Source of the DNA: a virus
Reading direction: 5' to 3' (one strand)
DNA length: 39,374 bases
UHGV virus genome: UHGV-0391889
Shown: positions 2,947 to 8,797 of the stretch, piece after piece
Layout of the letters: each line of letters opens with the position of its first letter
How positions within the stretch are numbered: the stretch's first letter is position 1
Position numbers and translations under genes: made by a program
Notes under the pieces: model-generated
Told to the model about the DNA's origin: nothing
What the model saw: only the letters and a program-made list of their open reading frames with translations
Database searches by the model: none

Positions 2947-3756
2947 TTATTCTTCTGAATTATCGATTACACTGTATTCCCCGGTTAATACAGAGGAGTC
3001 TGCCGGATCGATTGTCAGTGGTTCCTTTTCATCCATTGATACTGCACGCTGGATTTCAATTGAGACAGGCAGGTATTTAAACAGGCGACGAATAGCCGTT
3101 TTTTTTGCCATTTCTTCCCAGTGAGTTACCCATGGCCCGTTATTACCAGCCTTACTCTGGCTGCGCACCAGTTCAATCTGTTTGCGCGTCATAACTTCAA
3201 ACTGAGTCCCTCCGTCTTTCAGTCTTGCGACAGCATAGACGTGGGTCACTGGTGCATCTTCGTTTTCTCCCGGGCGGTGTATTAACTTTTCATCAAGGCC
3301 AAATTCAAAACTAAACTCGTCACCTTCACGGACAACACGGGCTGACAGGCTGGCGATTTGACCAGAACGGCGAGCCAGATCAATCATGCCGCGATAACCA
3401 ATGATTAGCTGAACGTTCTTTTTACCGCTCTTTTCGTTTTTATTACCAAAAGGCAGTAAATATGCGTGGCCGAGGGCGCTACCTGGCTCAAGGCCGAGCT
3501 GTGAACACTGAACGATCGCACTGACAAAACTCATGGTGTCACAGTTTCCTAGCGCCGGAACCTTACGAATTTCTGTGGTGGCGATACGTATCATTCGTTC
3601 AGCCGTCATATGGCGTGGGAGAGCTGCTGCCAGTTGCTCTTTCATTGATGGCTGATTAATAAAGCTGATCACGTCGTTATTTTTTACTGCTGCTGGTGCA
3701 CGGTTTCCCTGGGTTTTTTGCAGATCGGCTTTTGCGATAGGTGGTTGCTTAGTCAT
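2947..3756 (-). CDS. recT: RecT single-strand annealing recombinase
   Basis: 269 aa from [16 protein letters not shown]..., matching recalled E. coli Rac RecT; AAGGAG RBS upstream; track ORF trimmed to this start. Confidence 0.95.
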
Positions 3757-6382
3757 TTGCATACTCCTTAGCCCAGCGGGGCAGTGATAACGTTTTAATA
3801 GCTGGCCATTCATCGGTATTCAGGCAGTCAGCCAGGGTCCTCAGATTGCGGTGATATTCCTGCTGGCCTGCCAGTTTTGCTTCTTCGCCCATCATGAAAA
3901 TCTCAACCGGGTAACGTCCGCATTCAACAGTTGTGCTGGCAACCAGAAAAACGAAAGTTGGCAGCACGCCAAACTGTGCTTCATAACCGTCACTGTAGAA
4001 TGCATCCTGAACGTGATAGCGGTAGTCGTAATAAGCCGTTTTGAATCGTTGAATATCCGCTGTGGTTTTCACGTCCATGATCCAGTGAAATTCAGGAATA
4101 ATTTTGTCCGGACGGCACCGACACAAAATTCCTGTTTCCGGATCTTCCCAGTAAATTGATGATTCAGCGTGTCCGGCGCTTTCAACAAGCCATTGCCCCA
4201 GCGGCAAAGCCATAACGCTTTGATACATGAGTTCAATTTTCCGGCCTTCTTCCGCAGTGATAACCGTTTTTCCTGTGCTTGCGCATTCCATCAGAAACGC
4301 TTTCTCTTCTTCTTTTCCGGCGTTTGTACGGCGGTTAAATTCAGGTGCTACGATAAAGCGGTTACTGAATTCTTCCGGTTCAAGTACCCGGCAGTGGAAA
4401 GCGGTTCCTAAATCGAGCGTTTTTGTCTTTGTAGTGTCCACGGGGGCATTTTTACGCCACAAATACAGTGCCGGAGTATCAGCAATGTCATCGAGCTGAG
4501 ACTTACTGACACCGGGACCCGCGTGGTAATTCTCATTCGAAATTCCGTAATAAATACCTGGCTCTATGTCTTCTACGATTACGGGATCTGCGACTTCGCC
4601 AGTTTCATCACTGCAATCGCGATGCGGATCGCTGCCAGCATTCTCATTGTGCGGATGTTCAGCGCCTTCCATTTCCTCCGGATCTTTTTCCTTAGCTTCA
4701 ACCTGATTCTCTTCACCGAATGTTTCCTGGTATGTTGCGTCGCCCATCACCGCACCACAGTCAGGGCAGTTATCCCCGCCAGTCTGACCGCAGGCATTGC
4801 AGACTATTTCCGGTTCCTGTTGCACTACTGGCTCAGGTTGTTTCGCATCCGGGCTGATTTTTTCCGTTTCTGGCTGGTTCTGGTACACAGAATCGCGAGT
4901 CTGGATCCCCTTAACCCATTTCGGATCGTTCGGGTCGCTAATCCCTTCAACAAATTCTCCGCGAGAGGCAGCCAGTAATTTGTCTGCATCGACAGGATTT
5001 TTGGGCGGAATGTTTTTCCGGGCTTCATGGAGTTCTGCCCGCAGTTTCTGATATTTCGCATCAACAGAATTTACCTGTGACTGAGCATCCAGCGACTGCG
5101 TGTCCTGATGATGTTCAGTTGCATCCGGTTCCACTGTTTCAGCCGTTGCCTGTTCATCTGCCATTGCGCAAGATGGTTGCAGTTTTTCTTCATCATCCTG
5201 TTTTTCTTCTTCTGTTACACGCTGCGGCATCGGGGCAGAGGAACGACCGCAGGCAATATCCACGATTTCTGGATCAGGGTTGGCATGATCAGTTTCAGTC
5301 AGTACTTTGTTCAGATATTCAGTGACGTGTGCGGGGATAACCTCGATCCCAATTGGTGCTTCTTTTACGGACGCAACCACGATGGCGCGGGAATAATCCA
5401 GCCCACCAGGCATGGTGATGAATTTGTCGCGGAAAACAGAAAAGGGTGGTTTATTTTCAGCGATAATTTCCTCGACACGTTTAGCGTGTGCCGGATGAAG
5501 GTTATAAATGTCCACGTCCATTGAACGAGCCAGTACGCCAGTGGCTACGTCGCGCGCCAGTGACGTCAGATCGTGAACGAAACCTTCGCCGCGATCGGTG
5601 AGGTTCCCGCCGCCAGCATTAGCGCCGGAAGCCGTGCGCGTGATGCGTGAAACACGATTTCCTTTCATCCACTCTTTTGTCAGCAGACCGCGATCGGTGT
5701 AGTCTGCGTCCAGGTATGCTTCGAAAAAAGCAGTCATCAGCCCCAGGCTTGAATTGCCTGGATTAGGGAAAACTCTGTCAGTATCACGCACCAGTTTGTG
5801 GAGATCGCGAATTTCCAGCGGGTCGAGCAGGCTGGTTTTGTGGGAAACAGCCAGGGCAGTAACAGCTGGTAGTTCTTCAGCTCGTGCAATGTGTAATGCC
5901 TGTAGTTCGTCGCGTGAAACGTGCGTTACCGGTTTTTCGCTGCCGTGTTGAGCAAGCCAGCGAATGGGCAGCTCCTGACCGGAAATCGGGAGTAGCATAT
6001 TCTCCTCAATCTCCGTCATGTCTTCGCCATTAACATTGGTATTGTCAGTGCTGGCTGGTTTGTCCTGCGCAGAGGATGAGGGCGCGATAAATACCATTGT
6101 GATGCCATCTTCCCCGCCTTTTTCGTAACGGTTGCAGAATTCCGTATCAAATACGCCTTCTGGTGGAAGGTCATCAACAACGGGCAAATTGACGCGAACA
6201 GGTTTTTTAAAGTCATCTTCATCGTAGCCAGCATCGTCAATCGCAACAGCACCACGGGAGATGGCAATGGATAATTTTTTCGCTTCAGCCCAGTAAAAAC
6301 CGCCTTTAATACCGAGACGTTTTCTTACTTTGTCATTTTTTGCTTCGTAATACAGTGGGTAAACTTGTTTATCGGTGCTCAT
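3749..6382 (-). CDS. recE: RecE exonuclease VIII
   Basis: 877 aa; the C-terminal ~750 aa match recalled Rac RecE ([27 protein letters not shown]...[10 protein letters not shown]); the N-terminal ~100 aa look divergent. Confidence 0.9.
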
Positions 6383-6832: not shown

Positions 6833-7003
6833 TTAAAGTTCGTGTGCCATCTGGTCTTTTTCGGCACAATTTTCACTACAATATTTTTTCATTTCCGTCG
6901 TTGGGATAACTCCACGCATGAAATGAAGTGGTCTTTTAATGCTTTTGCTTTCTTCAATTCCTTTATTGCAAAGGTGGTAAGCACATTTTATTTTCTTAGT
7001 CAT
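6833..7003 (-). CDS. YdaE-like small zinc-ribbon protein (56 aa)
   Basis: Hand translation of the minus strand gives [56 protein letters not shown]; below the 60 aa cutoff so absent from the track; same position as ydaE in Rac. Confidence 0.55.
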   Translation of the reverse strand: MTKKIKCAYHLCNKGIEESKSIKRPLHFMRGVIPTTEMKKYCSENCAEKDQMAHEL

Positions 7004-7224
7004 CACCATGACTCCGCCTTTACAGGTAAACCATCACGACCGAGGAAGACTTTAATCATGCAGTCAGAAATGCATGTTTTTGTAGTCAGGTTACGAATAT
7101 AAAGTTTTCGCTTTTTAATATTGTTTGCCGAGGCGATATATGTCCGACCTTCATGAAGAACATAATCGCCAGGAGTCACACACTGACGTGGTATTTCATC
7201 AGTTCCGAAGTGATGAGCAATCAT
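7003..7224 (-). CDS. kilR: KilR-like FtsZ-targeting cell-division inhibitor
   Basis: 73 aa from [29 protein letters not shown]..., close to recalled Rac KilR. Confidence 0.85.
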
Positions 7225-7559
7225 AATTATCTCCATTTTTACAAATGAATTTTGTCGATGCGGTGCCTGGTGCCTCCAGGTGACGTTAACCAGTTAACAA
7301 TTAACGCCGGATACAGAGAATCCACCCATAACACTGTTTTTAGCTTTAACTGTTCCGCGTGCGCTTAGCCGCATTCACCGCATCACAAAATTCACTTTAA
7401 AAAGGGCGGACATCAGCCAAACTTCAAGAAAAAACTGATGCCGCCAGGACTACACACAGCAATGTCGTTATTTACAACCGGAGGCGCACTCCCACCATTT
7501 AAATTTAACAGACAAGACCGACTCTTTATGGATACCGGAAATGCGCCTTCGTGTTGTGC

Positions 7560-7600
7560 GCCTGTCTTTTTACCACTTCAGGCTCGGTGGTATACTGGAG
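7560..7600 (+). promoter_or_regulatory. Candidate promoter with extended -10 (TGGTATACT)
   Basis: TGG at 7588-7590 plus TATACT at 7591-7596, about 35 nt upstream of the ORF starting at 7631. Confidence 0.35.
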
Positions 7601-7630
7601 TTCTCACACAACCAGTAATAAGGTATTCCT

Positions 7631-7825
7631 ATGGATAATAAAGACAAAGCCTGGCTACTTGCTTTAGCTTTCAGCATCAGATCGCAGCGAGAAACAACTC
7701 ATCAAGAATTTTTCTCGGAAATCGAGAATGCTGAGAATGAGTTTTTGTCATTACTCAATGAACGTGATGCTAAAAAAAGCGCCGATTCACTTAAGGCTTG
7801 GGCGAAACTAGGCTCTTCAAAATAA
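7631..7825 (+). CDS. Hypothetical small protein (64 aa)
   Basis: ORF directly downstream of the extended -10 promoter; no recognisable family; weak RBS. Confidence 0.3.
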   Translation: MDNKDKAWLLALAFSIRSQRETTHQEFFSEIENAENEFLSLLNERDAKKSADSLKAWAKLGSSK

Positions 7826-8009
7826 TTGCTTCTGTAGCGGCATGAACAACTGTTTTTGCCGCCTCTTCAACTTCCTTGTCTGGACGACCAGCCTTTACTT
7901 TTTCTGCAATGACCTCCAGCACAGTTGGAAGAACCTTGCTAATAAGCATGGCTGCCACATCTTTGCTGCACAATTGACCGTTAATAACAACCAGATCTTC
8001 ACCAACCAT
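7791..8009 (-). CDS. Hypothetical protein (72 aa from MVGEDLVV...)
   Basis: Internal ATG with an AAGGGGA RBS 7 nt upstream; lies downstream of the repressor gene; no family assignment. Confidence 0.4.
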   Translation of the reverse strand: MVGEDLVVINGQLCSKDVAAMLISKVLPTVLEVIAEKVKAGRPDKEVEEAAKTVVHAATEAIILKSLVSPKP

Positions 8010-8254
8010 CTTTTTTCCCCTTAACGCCGGGTGGCGGAACGTTTTATCTACTGCGCTTTGTATCAATCAACAACTGCCGTCATGTTCGTATGCCTCAGGC
8101 TGGCTACTTAGCCCTGTTCAGTGGCTGGATAACTCGAGGTATTGTCCAGCCGTTCTCTGGTGGGGCGTTGTTTGGATATGGCAAATGCTCACATATCGTG
8201 AGTGATTTGTCAACTCAATATGTGAGCACTGTTGTTTTTGGATTTTTGATGGAC

Positions 8255-8288
8255 AAAAAAAGCCCTCGCTAATAGCGAGAGCTTTTTG
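8255..8288. terminator. Bidirectional rho-independent terminator
   Basis: Stem AGCCCTCGCT / AGCGAGAGCT with an A-run on one side and a T-run on the other, just downstream of the repressor stop. Confidence 0.5.
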
Positions 8289-8313
8289 ATTGGAATCGAG
8301 GGAGATTAAAGGT

Positions 8314-8703
8314 TTAGGAGGATTTTTTCTGTTGCCTGCTTCTTAGATATTTTTCCACATACTCATCAAGCTCTTGAAGACGGATTTCGAACAGATCAAT
8401 CATGCGTGCTTGTTCTGATCCCGGGAGCTGATTAAACAGCTCTAGCATTTTTTTCTGGTTATCATTTAACCATGAGTACGTGTTTTCCTGTTCACCGAAC
8501 ATTAATTCTGCGGGGGAAATGCCTAGTACTTGGCCGAGGATGATCGCATCCTCAGCCCCCACACTCCTGGTGCCAGCTTCGTAGTTAGCAATACGAGAAG
8601 AACCTGACCAACCACATAGTTTTGCCAGGTTTCCCATACTTAATCCTCGATTTAGGCGAGTGGCTTTTAGGCGCTCGCCTATTTGTTCTGCAATCGTTTT
8701 CAT
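8314..8703 (-). CDS. CI-like phage repressor, HTH XRE family
   Basis: 129 aa from MKTIAEQIGERLK...; HTH segment LSMGNLAKLCGWSGSSRIANYE; divergent from a Cro-like gene; the longer track ORF 8314-8808 would run across the operator region. Confidence 0.8.
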   Translation of the reverse strand: MKTIAEQIGERLKATRLNRGLSMGNLAKLCGWSGSSRIANYEAGTRSVGAEDAIILGQVLGISPAELMFGEQENTYSWLNDNQKKMLELFNQLPGSEQARMIDLFEIRLQELDEYVEKYLRSRQQKKSS

Positions 8704-8797
8704 AGTTCCGATTTTATCACGATGTGTGAAATTGGCGGTACTCACGTATCTGTAGTTGATCTCGCTCACGAAATGTGAATAATAGAGACAGGAGGTA
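8704..8797. promoter_or_regulatory. Divergent immunity-region promoters with three operator-like TCAC-N5-GTGA sites
   Basis: TCACgatgtGTGA at 8717-8729, TCACgtatcTGTA at 8742-8754, TCACgaaatGTGA at 8766-8778, spaced about 24-25 bp, between the repressor and cro-like starts. Confidence 0.55.

What the first reader, a model, noticed from the sequence alone, without database searches (positions are those of the whole stretch)
7237..8313. Variable slot between kilR and the repressor (the lambda sieB/rex position) holds two uncharacterised convergent small ORFs
There is a candidate promoter with an extended -10 (TGGTATACT at 7588-7596), a 64-codon plus-strand ORF, a 72-codon minus-strand ORF with a good RBS, and a bidirectional terminator. 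In lambda and Rac this position carries superinfection-exclusion or defence genes (sieB, rexAB). The products here resemble neither as far as I can tell, so they are candidate lysogen-expressed exclusion factors.
Basis: partly seen in the sequence, partly recalled or inferred. Interest (0 to 1): 0.45.

Follow-up and report, generated by a model that had tools for sequence, protein, structure and literature searches.

The report
Convergent prophage gene pair, portable promoter
Both small ORFs are real, conserved prophage genes of unknown function, but only the 64-codon one looks lysogen-expressed (from a promoter cassette shared by many prophages), while the 72-codon one is the first gene of the repressor-controlled early operon.

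Summary
Its interpretation is only half right.

- **Both ORFs are real genes.** They are conserved across Enterobacterales and under purifying selection. They recur as a convergent pair overlapping by 29-35 nt at the 3' ends.
- **72-aa gene (8009..7791, minus).** It lies downstream of a PL-type promoter whose operator matches the two operators beside the repressor gene. It is therefore the first early-left gene and should be silent in a lysogen.
- **64-aa gene (7631-7825, plus).** It is a distant YdiH-like protein in the position sieB holds in Rac. Its promoter and 5'UTR form a near-invariant portable cassette. That cassette sits in 24 species-representative genomes, in front of mostly unrelated small genes, including ymfI of E. 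coli K-12 prophage e14.
- **Support from K-12.** RNA-seq lists ymfI-ymfJ and sieB-ydaF as convergent excludons. ymfJ rises about 16-28-fold late in the SOS response.
The interval also holds a KilS (DicF-like) sRNA and an STnc100-like kilR leader.
- **Function.** Neither protein matches SieB, Rex, any PADLOC defence model or any solved fold. An exclusion role for the 64-aa protein is only a guess from position.

The parts
7217..7402 (-). STnc100-like structured leader of kilR. It is the same sequence as the dicF-dicB spacer of Qin-like prophages.
   Evidence: Rfam RF02076 scores 38.1 bits (gathering 47), E 9e-7. Window 7244-7409 is about 97% identical to the dicF-dicB spacer in L004. The first 170-350 bases of the query (this leader, and in Rac-type genomes KilS too) account for nearly all the matches in 4633 of 5426 E. 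coli genomes.
7399..7495 (-). KilS sRNA homologue. It has a DicF-like terminator stem-loop (7404-7458) but a different 5' seed.
   Evidence: Rfam DicF scores 37.6 bits, below the gathering score of 48. It differs at 2 positions from kilS (b4833) annotated in K-12 MG1655. The terminator hairpin plus U5 is predicted by folding. KilS was verified by northern blot and Hfq RIL-seq, and global TSS data indicate it can be transcribed from its own promoter (PMC8175672).
7560..7630 (+). Portable sigma-70 promoter plus 5'UTR cassette of the 64-aa gene. Elements: -35 TTTACC at 7569-7574; extended -10 TGgTATACT at 7588-7596; inferred TSS near 7603; SD AAGG. It contains the inverted repeats GCCTG..CAGGC and ACCAC..GTGGT.
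   Evidence: Consensus scan. Conserved in front of the 64-aa gene in 5 genera, with variation only at weak promoter positions. The same cassette precedes an unrelated 80-aa gene in L022 and ymfI in K-12 e14. The 20-specified-base pattern hits 24 species-representative genomes, each 29-37 nt upstream of an ATG (most preceded by an AAGG-type SD), with mostly unrelated cargo.
7631..7825 (+). 64-aa gene (WP_001419881, phrog_22868). It encodes a soluble helical protein distantly like YdiH (PF15930).
   Evidence: ORF. 46 homologue clusters in Enterobacterales. Purifying selection. AF2 predicts a short helix plus a long helix, pLDDT 78. hhalign against E. coli YdiH gives probability 71%, E 3.8e-5, including the C-terminal W-x-K/R-L-G. 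No Pfam, NCBIfam, PADLOC, PDB or BFVD match.
7791..7825 (.). 35-nt dual-coding 3' overlap of the two convergent genes.
   Evidence: Same geometry in L006-L012 (35 nt) and in L013, L014 and L017 (29 nt). Synonymous divergence falls to pS 0.06-0.3 here, against 0.6-0.9 elsewhere.
7791..8009 (-). 72-aa gene (WP_000232638 family, phrog_23495). It is the first gene of the early-left (PL-type) operon, with SD AAGGGG at 8022..8017.
8010..8179 (-). Conserved early-left leader of about 170 nt. This is backbone, not cargo.
   Evidence: Shared with L005 (upstream of a DUF1391 gene) and with Rac (upstream of ydaG), right up to the SD. Its first bases, ATCCAAACAACG, also begin the leader in Edwardsiella and Citrobacter.
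8185..8213 (-). PL-type promoter: TTGACA (8213..8208), 17-nt spacer, GAGCAT (8190..8185), preceded by TG. Operator OL (TCACATATCGTGA, 8189-8201) overlaps it.
   Evidence: Read from the sequence. The exact operator motif occurs only 3 times in the window: here and at 8717-8729 and 8766-8778. Prophages of another immunity type keep TTGACA at the same place with a TTTAAT -10, and homology breaks at 8181, a typical immunity-module boundary. The simple scan did not call this promoter because its -10 matches only 3 of 6.
8253..8290 (.). Bidirectional intrinsic terminator. It ends the repressor transcript (minus strand) and is the first good stop for the plus-strand transcript of the 64-aa gene.
   Evidence: Scan. 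Folds at -20.2 and -20.1 kcal/mol, z -4.4 and -5.2, with U-runs on both strands.
8314..8703 (-). Immunity repressor. It is HTH only, with no peptidase S24 domain.
   Evidence: Pfam HTH_31 and HTH_3; PHROG transcriptional repressor families; RefSeq annotation.

Best explanation
The interval is the promoter-proximal part of the prophage's early-left (PL-type) operon, with one separately promoted gene set against it.

**Layout, read right to left on the minus strand.**
- Repressor gene and its terminator.
- OL/PL.
- A conserved leader of about 170 nt.
- The 72-aa gene.
- The KilS sRNA.
- The STnc100-like leader.
- kilR.

**72-aa gene.** It is the first early-left gene. It should be held off by the repressor in a lysogen and switched on at induction.

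**64-aa gene.** It is convergent and YdiH-like, and overlaps the 72-aa gene by 35 nt. It is driven by a portable extended -10 promoter and 5'UTR cassette. In other Enterobacterales prophages the same cassette drives many unrelated small cargo genes, ymfI of e14 among them. I infer that it is the lysogen-expressed member of the pair.

**Inferred interplay.** I infer that the two genes form an excludon.
- In the lysogen, the 64-aa transcript runs antisense through the 72-aa gene and PL to the bidirectional terminator. This would damp leaky early transcription.
- At induction, strong PL transcription would override the 64-aa gene and silence it.

**Function.** Both products are small soluble helical proteins with no DNA-binding or membrane signature, so they most likely act by binding other proteins.

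**Shown:** gene reality, pair conservation, operon position, operator and promoter anatomy, and promoter portability. **Inferred:** expression states, the antisense interplay, and any exclusion or host-modulating role.
For: - Gene reality: homologues in 5 or more genera, with saturated synonymous and low non-synonymous divergence.
- Pairing with fixed geometry in about ten contexts with different repressors. Very diverged pairs also occur in L019 and L021.
- PL/OL: operator motif at 3 exact sites, all beside the repressor. TTGACA is kept across immunity types and homology breaks at 8181. PL and the start of the leader directly precede the gene in Edwardsiella and Citrobacter.
- The terminator isolates the operon from the repressor transcript.
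- Promoter portability.
- Experimental analogues in K-12. ymfJ (first early-left gene of e14) reaches log2FC 4-4.8 late in SOS, while ymfI reaches at most +2 (PMC11002266; PMC10012262). RNA-seq lists ymfI-ymfJ and sieB-ydaF as convergent excludons (PMC12288877).
- The Qin dicBF operon has the same layout: repressor, small ORFs, DicF, division inhibitor (bioRxiv 10.1101/2023.04.14.536235).
Against: - No expression data exist for this prophage. The TSS of both promoters is inferred from consensus.
- The PL -10 (GAGCAT) is weak, and the scanner did not call it.
- The plus-strand promoter contains inverted repeats that could be an operator, so it may not be constitutive.
- There is no terminator right after the 64-aa gene, and the bidirectional terminator is not conserved in other loci.
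- Each family also occurs without the other (L015, L018, L022), so functional coupling is not obligatory.
- ymfI does rise about 4-fold late in SOS. That is not the fall a strict excludon predicts. I did not check whether those data sets are strand-specific.
- No fold or sequence evidence points to any function.
Confidence: 0.55

Rival explanations
1. One reading: both small ORFs are lysogen-expressed superinfection-exclusion or defence factors that fill the sieB/rex slot.
For: The slot holds sieB in Rac. The 64-aa gene has its own promoter. Diverse cargo under one promoter resembles a defence or moron hotspot.
Against: The 72-aa gene lies downstream of an operator-covered PL and behind a terminator. 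Its e14 positional analogue ymfJ is induced with the lytic genes. Neither protein resembles SieB or any PADLOC model, and none of the 20 alternative cargo proteins hits PADLOC. Both are soluble, unlike SieB and RexB. Nothing occupies the true rex position.
Confidence: 0.08
2. An effector plus cognate antidote. The 64-aa protein, made in the lysogen, blocks an early step of incoming or own phage growth. The 72-aa protein, made first from PL, neutralises it so the prophage can grow after induction. This is comparable in logic to SieB/Esc or BstA/aba self-immunity.
For: The two families stay paired through deep divergence. The 72-aa gene is always at the very start of the early operon, directly after PL or after N. 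Opposite regulation is predicted.
Against: Each family also occurs alone. In L022 the 72-like domain faces an unrelated cargo gene. A physical overlap alone would keep the two genes linked. No interaction or toxicity data exist, and multimer modelling was not available.
Confidence: 0.17
3. Two functionally unrelated accessory genes. They are co-inherited only because their coding regions overlap, and convergent transcription has no regulatory importance.
For: Lambdoid early regions are mosaics of small independent genes. Solo occurrences exist. The portable promoter takes any cargo, and the opposing first gene also varies: ymfJ, ydaF, DUF1391.
Against: Pairing persists at very low sequence identity with differing overlap lengths of 29, 35, 83 and 104 nt. 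That is harder to explain by frozen overlap alone. K-12 analogues show overlapping convergent transcripts.
Confidence: 0.2
4. One or both ORFs are not translated, and the region acts only through RNA (an antisense transcript against the early operon).
For: In L005 and Rac a diverged form of the promoter element is present. L005 has no plus-strand gene behind it. The Klebsiella phage record annotates only the 72-aa ORF.
Against: Both frames show pS far above pN outside the overlap. Length and start are conserved, SD sequences are conserved, and amino-acid motifs are conserved down to about 41% identity.
Confidence: 0.03

Closest known systems
ymfI / ymfJ of E. coli K-12 cryptic prophage e14
   Same: Same layout: repressor gene (ymfK), then the first early-left gene (ymfJ), then a convergent overlapping plus-strand gene (ymfI). 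Both loci match the 24-nt promoter pattern, and the surrounding cassette differs at only a few positions. Published data show ymfJ is SOS-induced, and ymfI-ymfJ is listed as a convergent excludon.
   Different: The proteins are unrelated. YmfI (113 aa) is not YdiH-like, and YmfJ shows no match to the 72-aa profile. However, the N-terminal 40 aa of YmfJ is found fused to a 72-aa domain in P0072. The overlap is 63 nt rather than 35 nt. The function of YmfI and YmfJ is also unknown.
sieB / ydaF-ydaG of Rac (E. coli K-12)
   Same: Same backbone: the kilR-KilS side is 88% identical and the early-left leader is shared up to the SD. sieB sits on the plus strand where the 64-aa gene sits, and ydaF and ydaG sit where the 72-aa gene sits. 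sieB-ydaF is listed as a convergent excludon in K-12.
   Different: SieB is a 162-aa superinfection-exclusion family protein with no similarity to the 64-aa protein. YdaF is unrelated to the 72-aa protein. The Rac version of the promoter element is diverged and lacks the good -10.
YdiH (PF15930), an uncharacterised 62-aa E. coli chromosomal protein
   Same: Same length. Shared motif pattern LA..Y/F......S/T-P..Y/F-L...E.E/D-F..LL and C-terminal W-x-K/R-L-G. hhalign gives probability 71%, E 3.8e-5. Intermediate phage homologues hit the Pfam model at E about 1e-4. One alternative cargo under the same promoter hits it at 5e-7.
   Different: The window protein itself does not reach the Pfam threshold. 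Chromosomal ydiH has no annotated convergent partner and is not in a prophage. YdiH has no known function, so the link gives no mechanism.
dicBF operon of Qin (dicA, ydfA-ydfB-ydfC, dicF, dicB)
   Same: Same operon logic: a CI-like repressor, a repressed promoter, small ORFs, an sRNA with a terminator-like 3' stem, a structured spacer about 97% identical, and a cell-division inhibitor.
   Different: Here the sRNA is KilS, with a different seed and a score below the DicF gathering threshold. The inhibitor is KilR rather than DicB. The small ORFs are unrelated (YdfC against the 72-aa profile).
Lambda N-ral-sieB-kil segment of the PL operon
   Same: In relatives that have an N gene, the 72-aa gene directly follows N (the ral position). 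The 64-aa gene lies between it and kil (the sieB position).
   Different: No sequence similarity to the Rac SieB homologue was found. Ral and lambda SieB were not compared directly. From established knowledge, lambda sieB runs in the same direction as PL, whereas here the gene is convergent. This window has no N gene.

Membership tests
SieB superinfection-exclusion family | Sequence homology to SieB | tested here: not met
   hhalign of the 64-aa profile against Rac SieB gives probability 0.1%. No Pfam, NCBIfam or PADLOC hit.
SieB superinfection-exclusion family | Membrane protein of roughly 160-190 aa | tested here: not met
   The proteins are 64 and 72 aa. Their predicted helices carry many charged residues, and no hydrophobic span is visible. 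I judged this by eye; no TM predictor was run.
SieB superinfection-exclusion family | Located in the early-left operon region between the repressor/N and kil | tested here: met
   The 64-aa gene occupies the exact place of sieB in the Rac backbone.
RexAB-type exclusion (lambda) | Genes lie between the repressor gene and OL/PL and are co-transcribed with the repressor | tested here: not met
   The repressor stop at 8314 is followed directly by the terminator (8253-8290) and then by OL/PL. Both ORFs lie beyond PL.
RexAB-type exclusion (lambda) | Homology to RexA/RexB | tested here: not met
   No PADLOC, Pfam or PHROG match other than two unknown-function PHROGs. I did not confirm that PADLOC-DB 2.0 holds Rex models; I assumed so.
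YdiH family (Pfam PF15930) | Score at or above the Pfam gathering threshold (27 bits) | tested here: not met
   The window protein has no hit at E<=1. One of 25 family members hits at E 0.093. Diverged phage relatives score 22.6-22.8 bits.
YdiH family (Pfam PF15930) | Profile-level similarity over the full length to E. coli YdiH | tested here: inconclusive
   hhalign gives probability 71%, E 3.8e-5 over 48 columns. Length and the C-terminal W-x-K/R-L-G also match.
Excludon (convergent genes with overlapping transcripts and mutually exclusive expression) | Convergent genes whose transcription units overlap | tested here: met
   The coding regions themselves overlap by 35 nt. There is no plus-strand terminator before 8151, and the first good one is at 8265-8279.
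Excludon (convergent genes with overlapping transcripts and mutually exclusive expression) | Reciprocal expression, or RNase III-dependent decay, of the two mRNAs | not testable with these tools
   Only analogues are available. ymfI-ymfJ and sieB-ydaF are listed as excludons in K-12 RNA-seq. ymfJ is strongly and ymfI weakly SOS-induced.
Moron (autonomous promoter-gene-terminator unit expressed from the prophage) | Own promoter independent of the phage operon | tested here: met
   Extended -10 consensus. It is conserved with variation only at weak positions, and it is portable in front of mostly unrelated cargo genes in 24 species-representative genomes.
Moron (autonomous promoter-gene-terminator unit expressed from the prophage) | Own terminator directly downstream | tested here: not met
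   No terminator-like site lies between 7825 and 8150 on the plus strand.
Moron (autonomous promoter-gene-terminator unit expressed from the prophage) | Expression in the lysogen | not testable with these tools
   No transcript data exist for this prophage.
DicF sRNA (Rfam RF00039) | Covariance-model score at or above gathering (48 bits), with the ftsZ-pairing sequence conserved | tested here: not met
   The score is 37.6 bits. The 3' stem is conserved, but the 5' region and loop differ.
KilS sRNA of Rac (b4833) | Sequence identity and position in the kilR 5' region | tested here: met
   97 nt against 98 nt with 2 differences, in the same position upstream of kilR.
Lambda N-type antiterminator (for the 72-aa first gene) | N_peptide domain or arginine-rich motif | tested here: not met
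   No Pfam hit. By my own count the protein is near-neutral, with no arginine-rich stretch. In L017 and L018 a separate N_peptide gene precedes the 72-aa homologue.

The most novel reading that the evidence does not exclude
The near-invariant promoter and 5'UTR cassette, with its two inverted repeats, may be a dedicated and regulated expression platform. It would mark a cargo-exchange hotspot for lysogen-expressed anti-phage or host-modulating genes across Enterobacterales prophages. The opposing first early gene would act as the cognate off-switch or antidote. On this reading the 64-aa and 72-aa proteins are a new exclusion plus self-immunity pair, wired as an excludon toggle.
Probability: 0.12. 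Interest if true: 0.7.

Novelty: new member of a known kind. Interest (0 to 1): 0.38.

Why it matters
- It corrects the map of a very common prophage region. It shows which small gene belongs to the lytic programme and which to the lysogenic one.
- It shows that an sRNA (KilS) and a structured leader fill what looked like empty spacer.
- The more useful by-product is the portable promoter and 5'UTR cassette. One 24-nt pattern finds the lysogen-side cargo gene of this slot in many genera. That gives a simple handle for collecting candidate conversion or exclusion genes, and for testing whether convergent transcription against PL helps keep toxic early genes (kilR, KilS/DicF, dicB) quiet.
- The two proteins themselves remain of unknown function. 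The E. coli version of the module is rare, in 29 of 5426 complete E. coli genomes.

Tried and rejected
- **Sequence families.** Pfam, NCBIfam, PADLOC and PDB-sequence searches of both proteins and their profiles found nothing. PHROGs returned only unknown-function families.
- **Positional equivalents.** Profile comparisons with YdfC, YdaF, SieB and YmfJ, and between the two families, showed no relation.
- **N analogue.** I rejected the idea that the 72-aa protein is an N analogue, because it follows a true N gene in L017 and L018.
- **RNA hairpin or pseudoknot in the promoter.** The inverted repeats do not fold stably on either strand (z about 0), despite compensatory-looking variants. I now treat them as a possible DNA operator.
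- **A third deep pair in Lelliottia (L025).** The YdiH-like cargo is real. The opposing 128-aa ORF is not demonstrably 72-like, so I dropped it.
- **Literature.** Searches by accession and PHROG id found nothing. YdiH is uncharacterised.
- **Other ORFs.** I did not pursue the plus-strand ORFs 7438-7638 and 8090-8272. They lie antisense to KilS and to the conserved leader, with no family hits.
Full report
**1. What is in the sequence**

The window is a Rac-like lambdoid prophage of E. coli. On the minus strand it carries recE, a racC-position ORF, ydaE and kilR. The repressor gene is also on the minus strand, at 8703..8314. A cro-like gene, ydaT, a replication gene and ydaV follow on the plus strand.

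- The promoter-like site TTTACC-16-TATACT, with TG giving TGGTATACT at 7588-7596.
- The 64-codon ORF at 7631-7825 on the plus strand.
- The 72-codon ORF at 8009..7791 on the minus strand, with AAGGGG 7 nt upstream of its ATG.
- A hairpin at 8253-8290 that works as an intrinsic terminator on both strands (dG about -20 kcal/mol, z -4.4 and -5.2).

On their own these are chance-level features. The scan found 3 promoter-like sites where 4.1 were expected, and 62 ORFs of at least 30 aa overlap 5.5 kb. The case therefore rests on comparison with other loci.

**2. Both ORFs are real genes**

RefSeq annotates both as hypothetical proteins. Each matches an unknown-function PHROG end to end.

The 72-aa protein has 24 homologue clusters, or 15 representatives at 50% identity. 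The 64-aa protein has 46 clusters once a profile is used. These come from Escherichia, Klebsiella, Raoultella, Citrobacter, Edwardsiella and Superficieibacter, down to about 41% identity, with length nearly fixed.

Outside their overlap both genes show near-saturated synonymous change (pS 0.6-0.9) against pN 0.2-0.38. Inside the last 12 codons of each gene, which contain the overlap, pS falls to 0.06-0.3, as expected for dual coding.

**3. They travel as a pair**

In Klebsiella michiganensis (L006), Raoultella (L007, L008), Escherichia sp. E4385 (L009, L010) and a metagenomic E. coli-like contig (L011, L012), the two genes are convergent with the same 35-nt 3' overlap. In Edwardsiella (L013), Citrobacter (L014) and L017 the overlap is 29 nt. 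A Klebsiella phage record (L016) matches the module at 67% identity, though only the 72-aa ORF is annotated there. All these loci lie in early-left operons beside different repressors.

Two very diverged 72-like proteins, P0079 and P0078, also face overlapping YdiH-like ORFs (L019 and L021).

There are exceptions:
- A 64-like gene without the partner (L015).
- A 72-like gene without the partner (L018).
- A 72-like domain facing an unrelated 80-aa gene (L022).

In E. coli the module is rare but almost invariant. It occurs in 29 of 5426 complete genomes, all at 99% identity or more, while the flanks are about 96% identical. That is the signature of a cassette.

**4. Where the 72-aa gene sits**

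The motif TCAC-N5-GTGA occurs exactly three times in 39 kb: at 8189-8201, 8717-8729 and 8766-8778. These sites lie on both sides of the repressor gene.

The left site overlaps a minus-strand promoter: TTGACA (8213..8208), a 17-nt spacer, then GAGCAT (8190..8185), preceded by TG. Prophages with another immunity type keep TTGACA at the same position, with TTTAAT as the -10. Their homology to the window ends at 8181, a classic immunity-module boundary.

In Edwardsiella and Citrobacter a TTGACT-17-TATCGT or CATAGT promoter and the same first leader bases (ATCCAAACAACG) directly precede the 72-aa gene. The 170-nt leader here is backbone. It is shared, right up to the SD, with Rac (before ydaG) and with L005 (before a DUF1391 gene).

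The 72-aa gene is therefore the first gene of the repressor-controlled early-left operon. A strong terminator shields it from the repressor transcript.

It is not an N analogue, because in L017 and L018 it follows a true N_peptide gene. Nothing occupies the lambda rex position between the repressor gene and PL.

**5. The 64-aa gene and its promoter**

The cassette boundary on this side falls at about 7597, so the gene replaces sieB of Rac precisely.

Its upstream 70 nt are better conserved than the coding sequence across genera. Changes fall only at the weak promoter positions: -35 position 3 and -10 position 4. The TG and the SD AAGG are retained.

The same cassette drives an unrelated gene in L022. 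A pattern of 20 specified bases (CCACNTCAGGCTNNGTGGTATNCT) should give about one chance hit in the 596-Gb collection, by my own arithmetic. It hit 24 species-representative genomes. They include Enterobacter, Lelliottia, Rahnella, Pantoea, Hafnia, Buttiauxella, Kluyvera, Salmonella, Klebsiella, Citrobacter, Edwardsiella and E. coli.

In each case an ATG, usually preceded by an AAGG-type SD, follows 29-37 nt later and opens a small gene of 63-163 aa. The 24 hits gave 19 distinct cargo proteins; these plus the L022 cargo were the 20 sequences scanned. They include the YmfI family (3 of the 20 scanned), the ECs1072 family, ECs_2282-like zinc ribbons, one YdiH family member, and many with no family. 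None hits PADLOC.

In 21 of the 24, an opposite-strand ORF ends inside or next to the cargo gene, although several of these ORFs may be spurious.

E. coli K-12 prophage e14 has a near-identical cassette in front of ymfI. Its layout is the same: repressor ymfK, first early gene ymfJ, and convergent ymfI with a 63-nt overlap.

**6. Experimental analogues from the literature**

- In K-12, ymfJ rises to log2FC 4-4.8 late in the SOS response, together with other CI-controlled e14 genes. ymfI changes between -0.5 and +2 (PMC11002266; PMC10012262).
- ExcludonFinder lists ymfI-ymfJ and sieB-ydaF among the convergent excludons detected in E. coli RNA-seq (PMC12288877).
- The Qin dicBF operon has the same logic: a repressor-controlled promoter, small ORFs, a processed sRNA and a division inhibitor.

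These results support the regulatory reading by analogy. They do not show it for this prophage.

**7. What else fills the interval**

Window 7495..7399 (minus) differs at two positions from kilS (b4833) of K-12 Rac. KilS is an Hfq-associated sRNA verified by northern blot, and global TSS data indicate it can be transcribed from its own promoter (PMC8175672). Rfam sees it as a sub-threshold DicF: the 3' stem is conserved, but the seed and loop differ.

Window 7402..7217 is an STnc100-like structured leader of kilR. It is about 97% identical to the dicF-dicB spacer of Qin-like prophages. It, together with KilS in Rac-type genomes, accounts for nearly all the matches in about 4600 of 5426 E. coli genomes. 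STnc100 and PasD are described as prophage-borne sRNAs.

**8. What the proteins might do**

AF2 predicts a beta-hairpin plus two 24-residue helices for the 72-aa protein (pLDDT 80). For the 64-aa protein it predicts a short helix plus one long helix (pLDDT 78).

The 64-aa family is distantly YdiH-like (hhalign probability 71%, E 3.8e-5, with the same C-terminal W-x-K/R-L-G). YdiH itself is uncharacterised.

Both proteins look soluble and, by my count, near-neutral to acidic. I see no DNA-binding or membrane signature. Protein-binding modulators are the most reasonable guess.

**9. Verdict**

- The 64-aa gene is a plausible lysogen-expressed cargo gene at the sieB position.
- The 72-aa gene belongs to the repressed early operon.
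- 'Exclusion' remains a guess from position.

I put about 0.55 on the architecture and excludon reading as a whole. I am much more confident of its anatomical part than of the expression states. I put about 0.2 on any exclusion or defence role for the 64-aa protein.

The pair is a new member of a known kind: small accessory genes of lambdoid early regions. The portable promoter cassette is the most interesting by-product.

Noticed in passing
window 7399-7495 (minus): An unannotated homologue of the Rac sRNA KilS. It has a DicF-like terminator stem but a different seed, and differs from K-12 kilS at 2 positions. A possible extended -10 (TGTTAAATT) lies just upstream of the expected 5' end. That would make it divergent from the 64-aa gene promoter, about 100 nt away.
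   Followed up: partly
window 7217-7402 (minus); L004 3001-3165: An STnc100-like structured leader runs into the kilR start codon. It is about 97% identical to the dicF-dicB spacer of Qin-like prophages. This leader (with KilS in Rac-type genomes) accounts for nearly all the matches in about 4600 of 5426 complete E. coli genomes, always unannotated.
   Followed up: partly
window 7560-7596; L003 about 3310-3350; L015 about 3900-3950: The promoter cassette holds two interleaved inverted repeats, GCCTG..CAGGC and ACCAC..GTGGT. Variants look compensatory (CCCGG..CCGGG in Rac, GCCGGG..CCCGGC in L015). Neither strand folds stably as RNA (z about 0). They may be a protein operator.
   Followed up: partly
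P0072; L011 3706-3918; L048 4277-4585: The N-terminal 40 aa of e14 YmfJ (KHVIALLLEDAKRLQQIEPNAGTEARI) is fused to a 72-aa domain in P0072 (78% identity to YmfJ). It appears as a separate ORF just upstream of the 72-aa gene in L011. The first early-left genes therefore seem to be built from shuffled modules.
   Followed up: partly
L011 5608-5796; L005 2739-2927: Strong Rfam hits to isrK and C4 antisense RNA (67-79 bits) lie next to a Rha/Ash-type gene inside the same early-left operons. This is a P1/P7-type c4 antirepressor control module embedded in Rac-like prophages.
   Followed up: no
window 8314-8703: The immunity repressor is HTH only (129 aa) with no peptidase S24 domain. Induction is presumably through an antirepressor rather than RecA-mediated cleavage. 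Relatives carrying the same gene pair have S24-type repressors (L013, L018, L021).
   Followed up: no
window 7755-7767: A one-mismatch copy of the operator motif (TCAATGAACGTGA) lies inside the 64-aa ORF. It is probably chance, since 14 one-mismatch sites were found against 14.8 expected.
   Followed up: no
L039 (contig titled Geobacteraceae MAG): The enterobacterial promoter cassette, with a convergent-ORF layout, occurs on a contig binned as Geobacteraceae. This is probably mis-binning or contamination.
   Followed up: no
window 6833-7236: The kilR ORF as listed starts 4 codons upstream of the start implied by the 73-aa RefSeq annotation in related loci (77 vs 73 aa). It overlaps the ydaE-family zinc-binding gene by 7 nt. 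In L022 KilR and YdaE domains are fused in one 124-aa protein.
   Followed up: no
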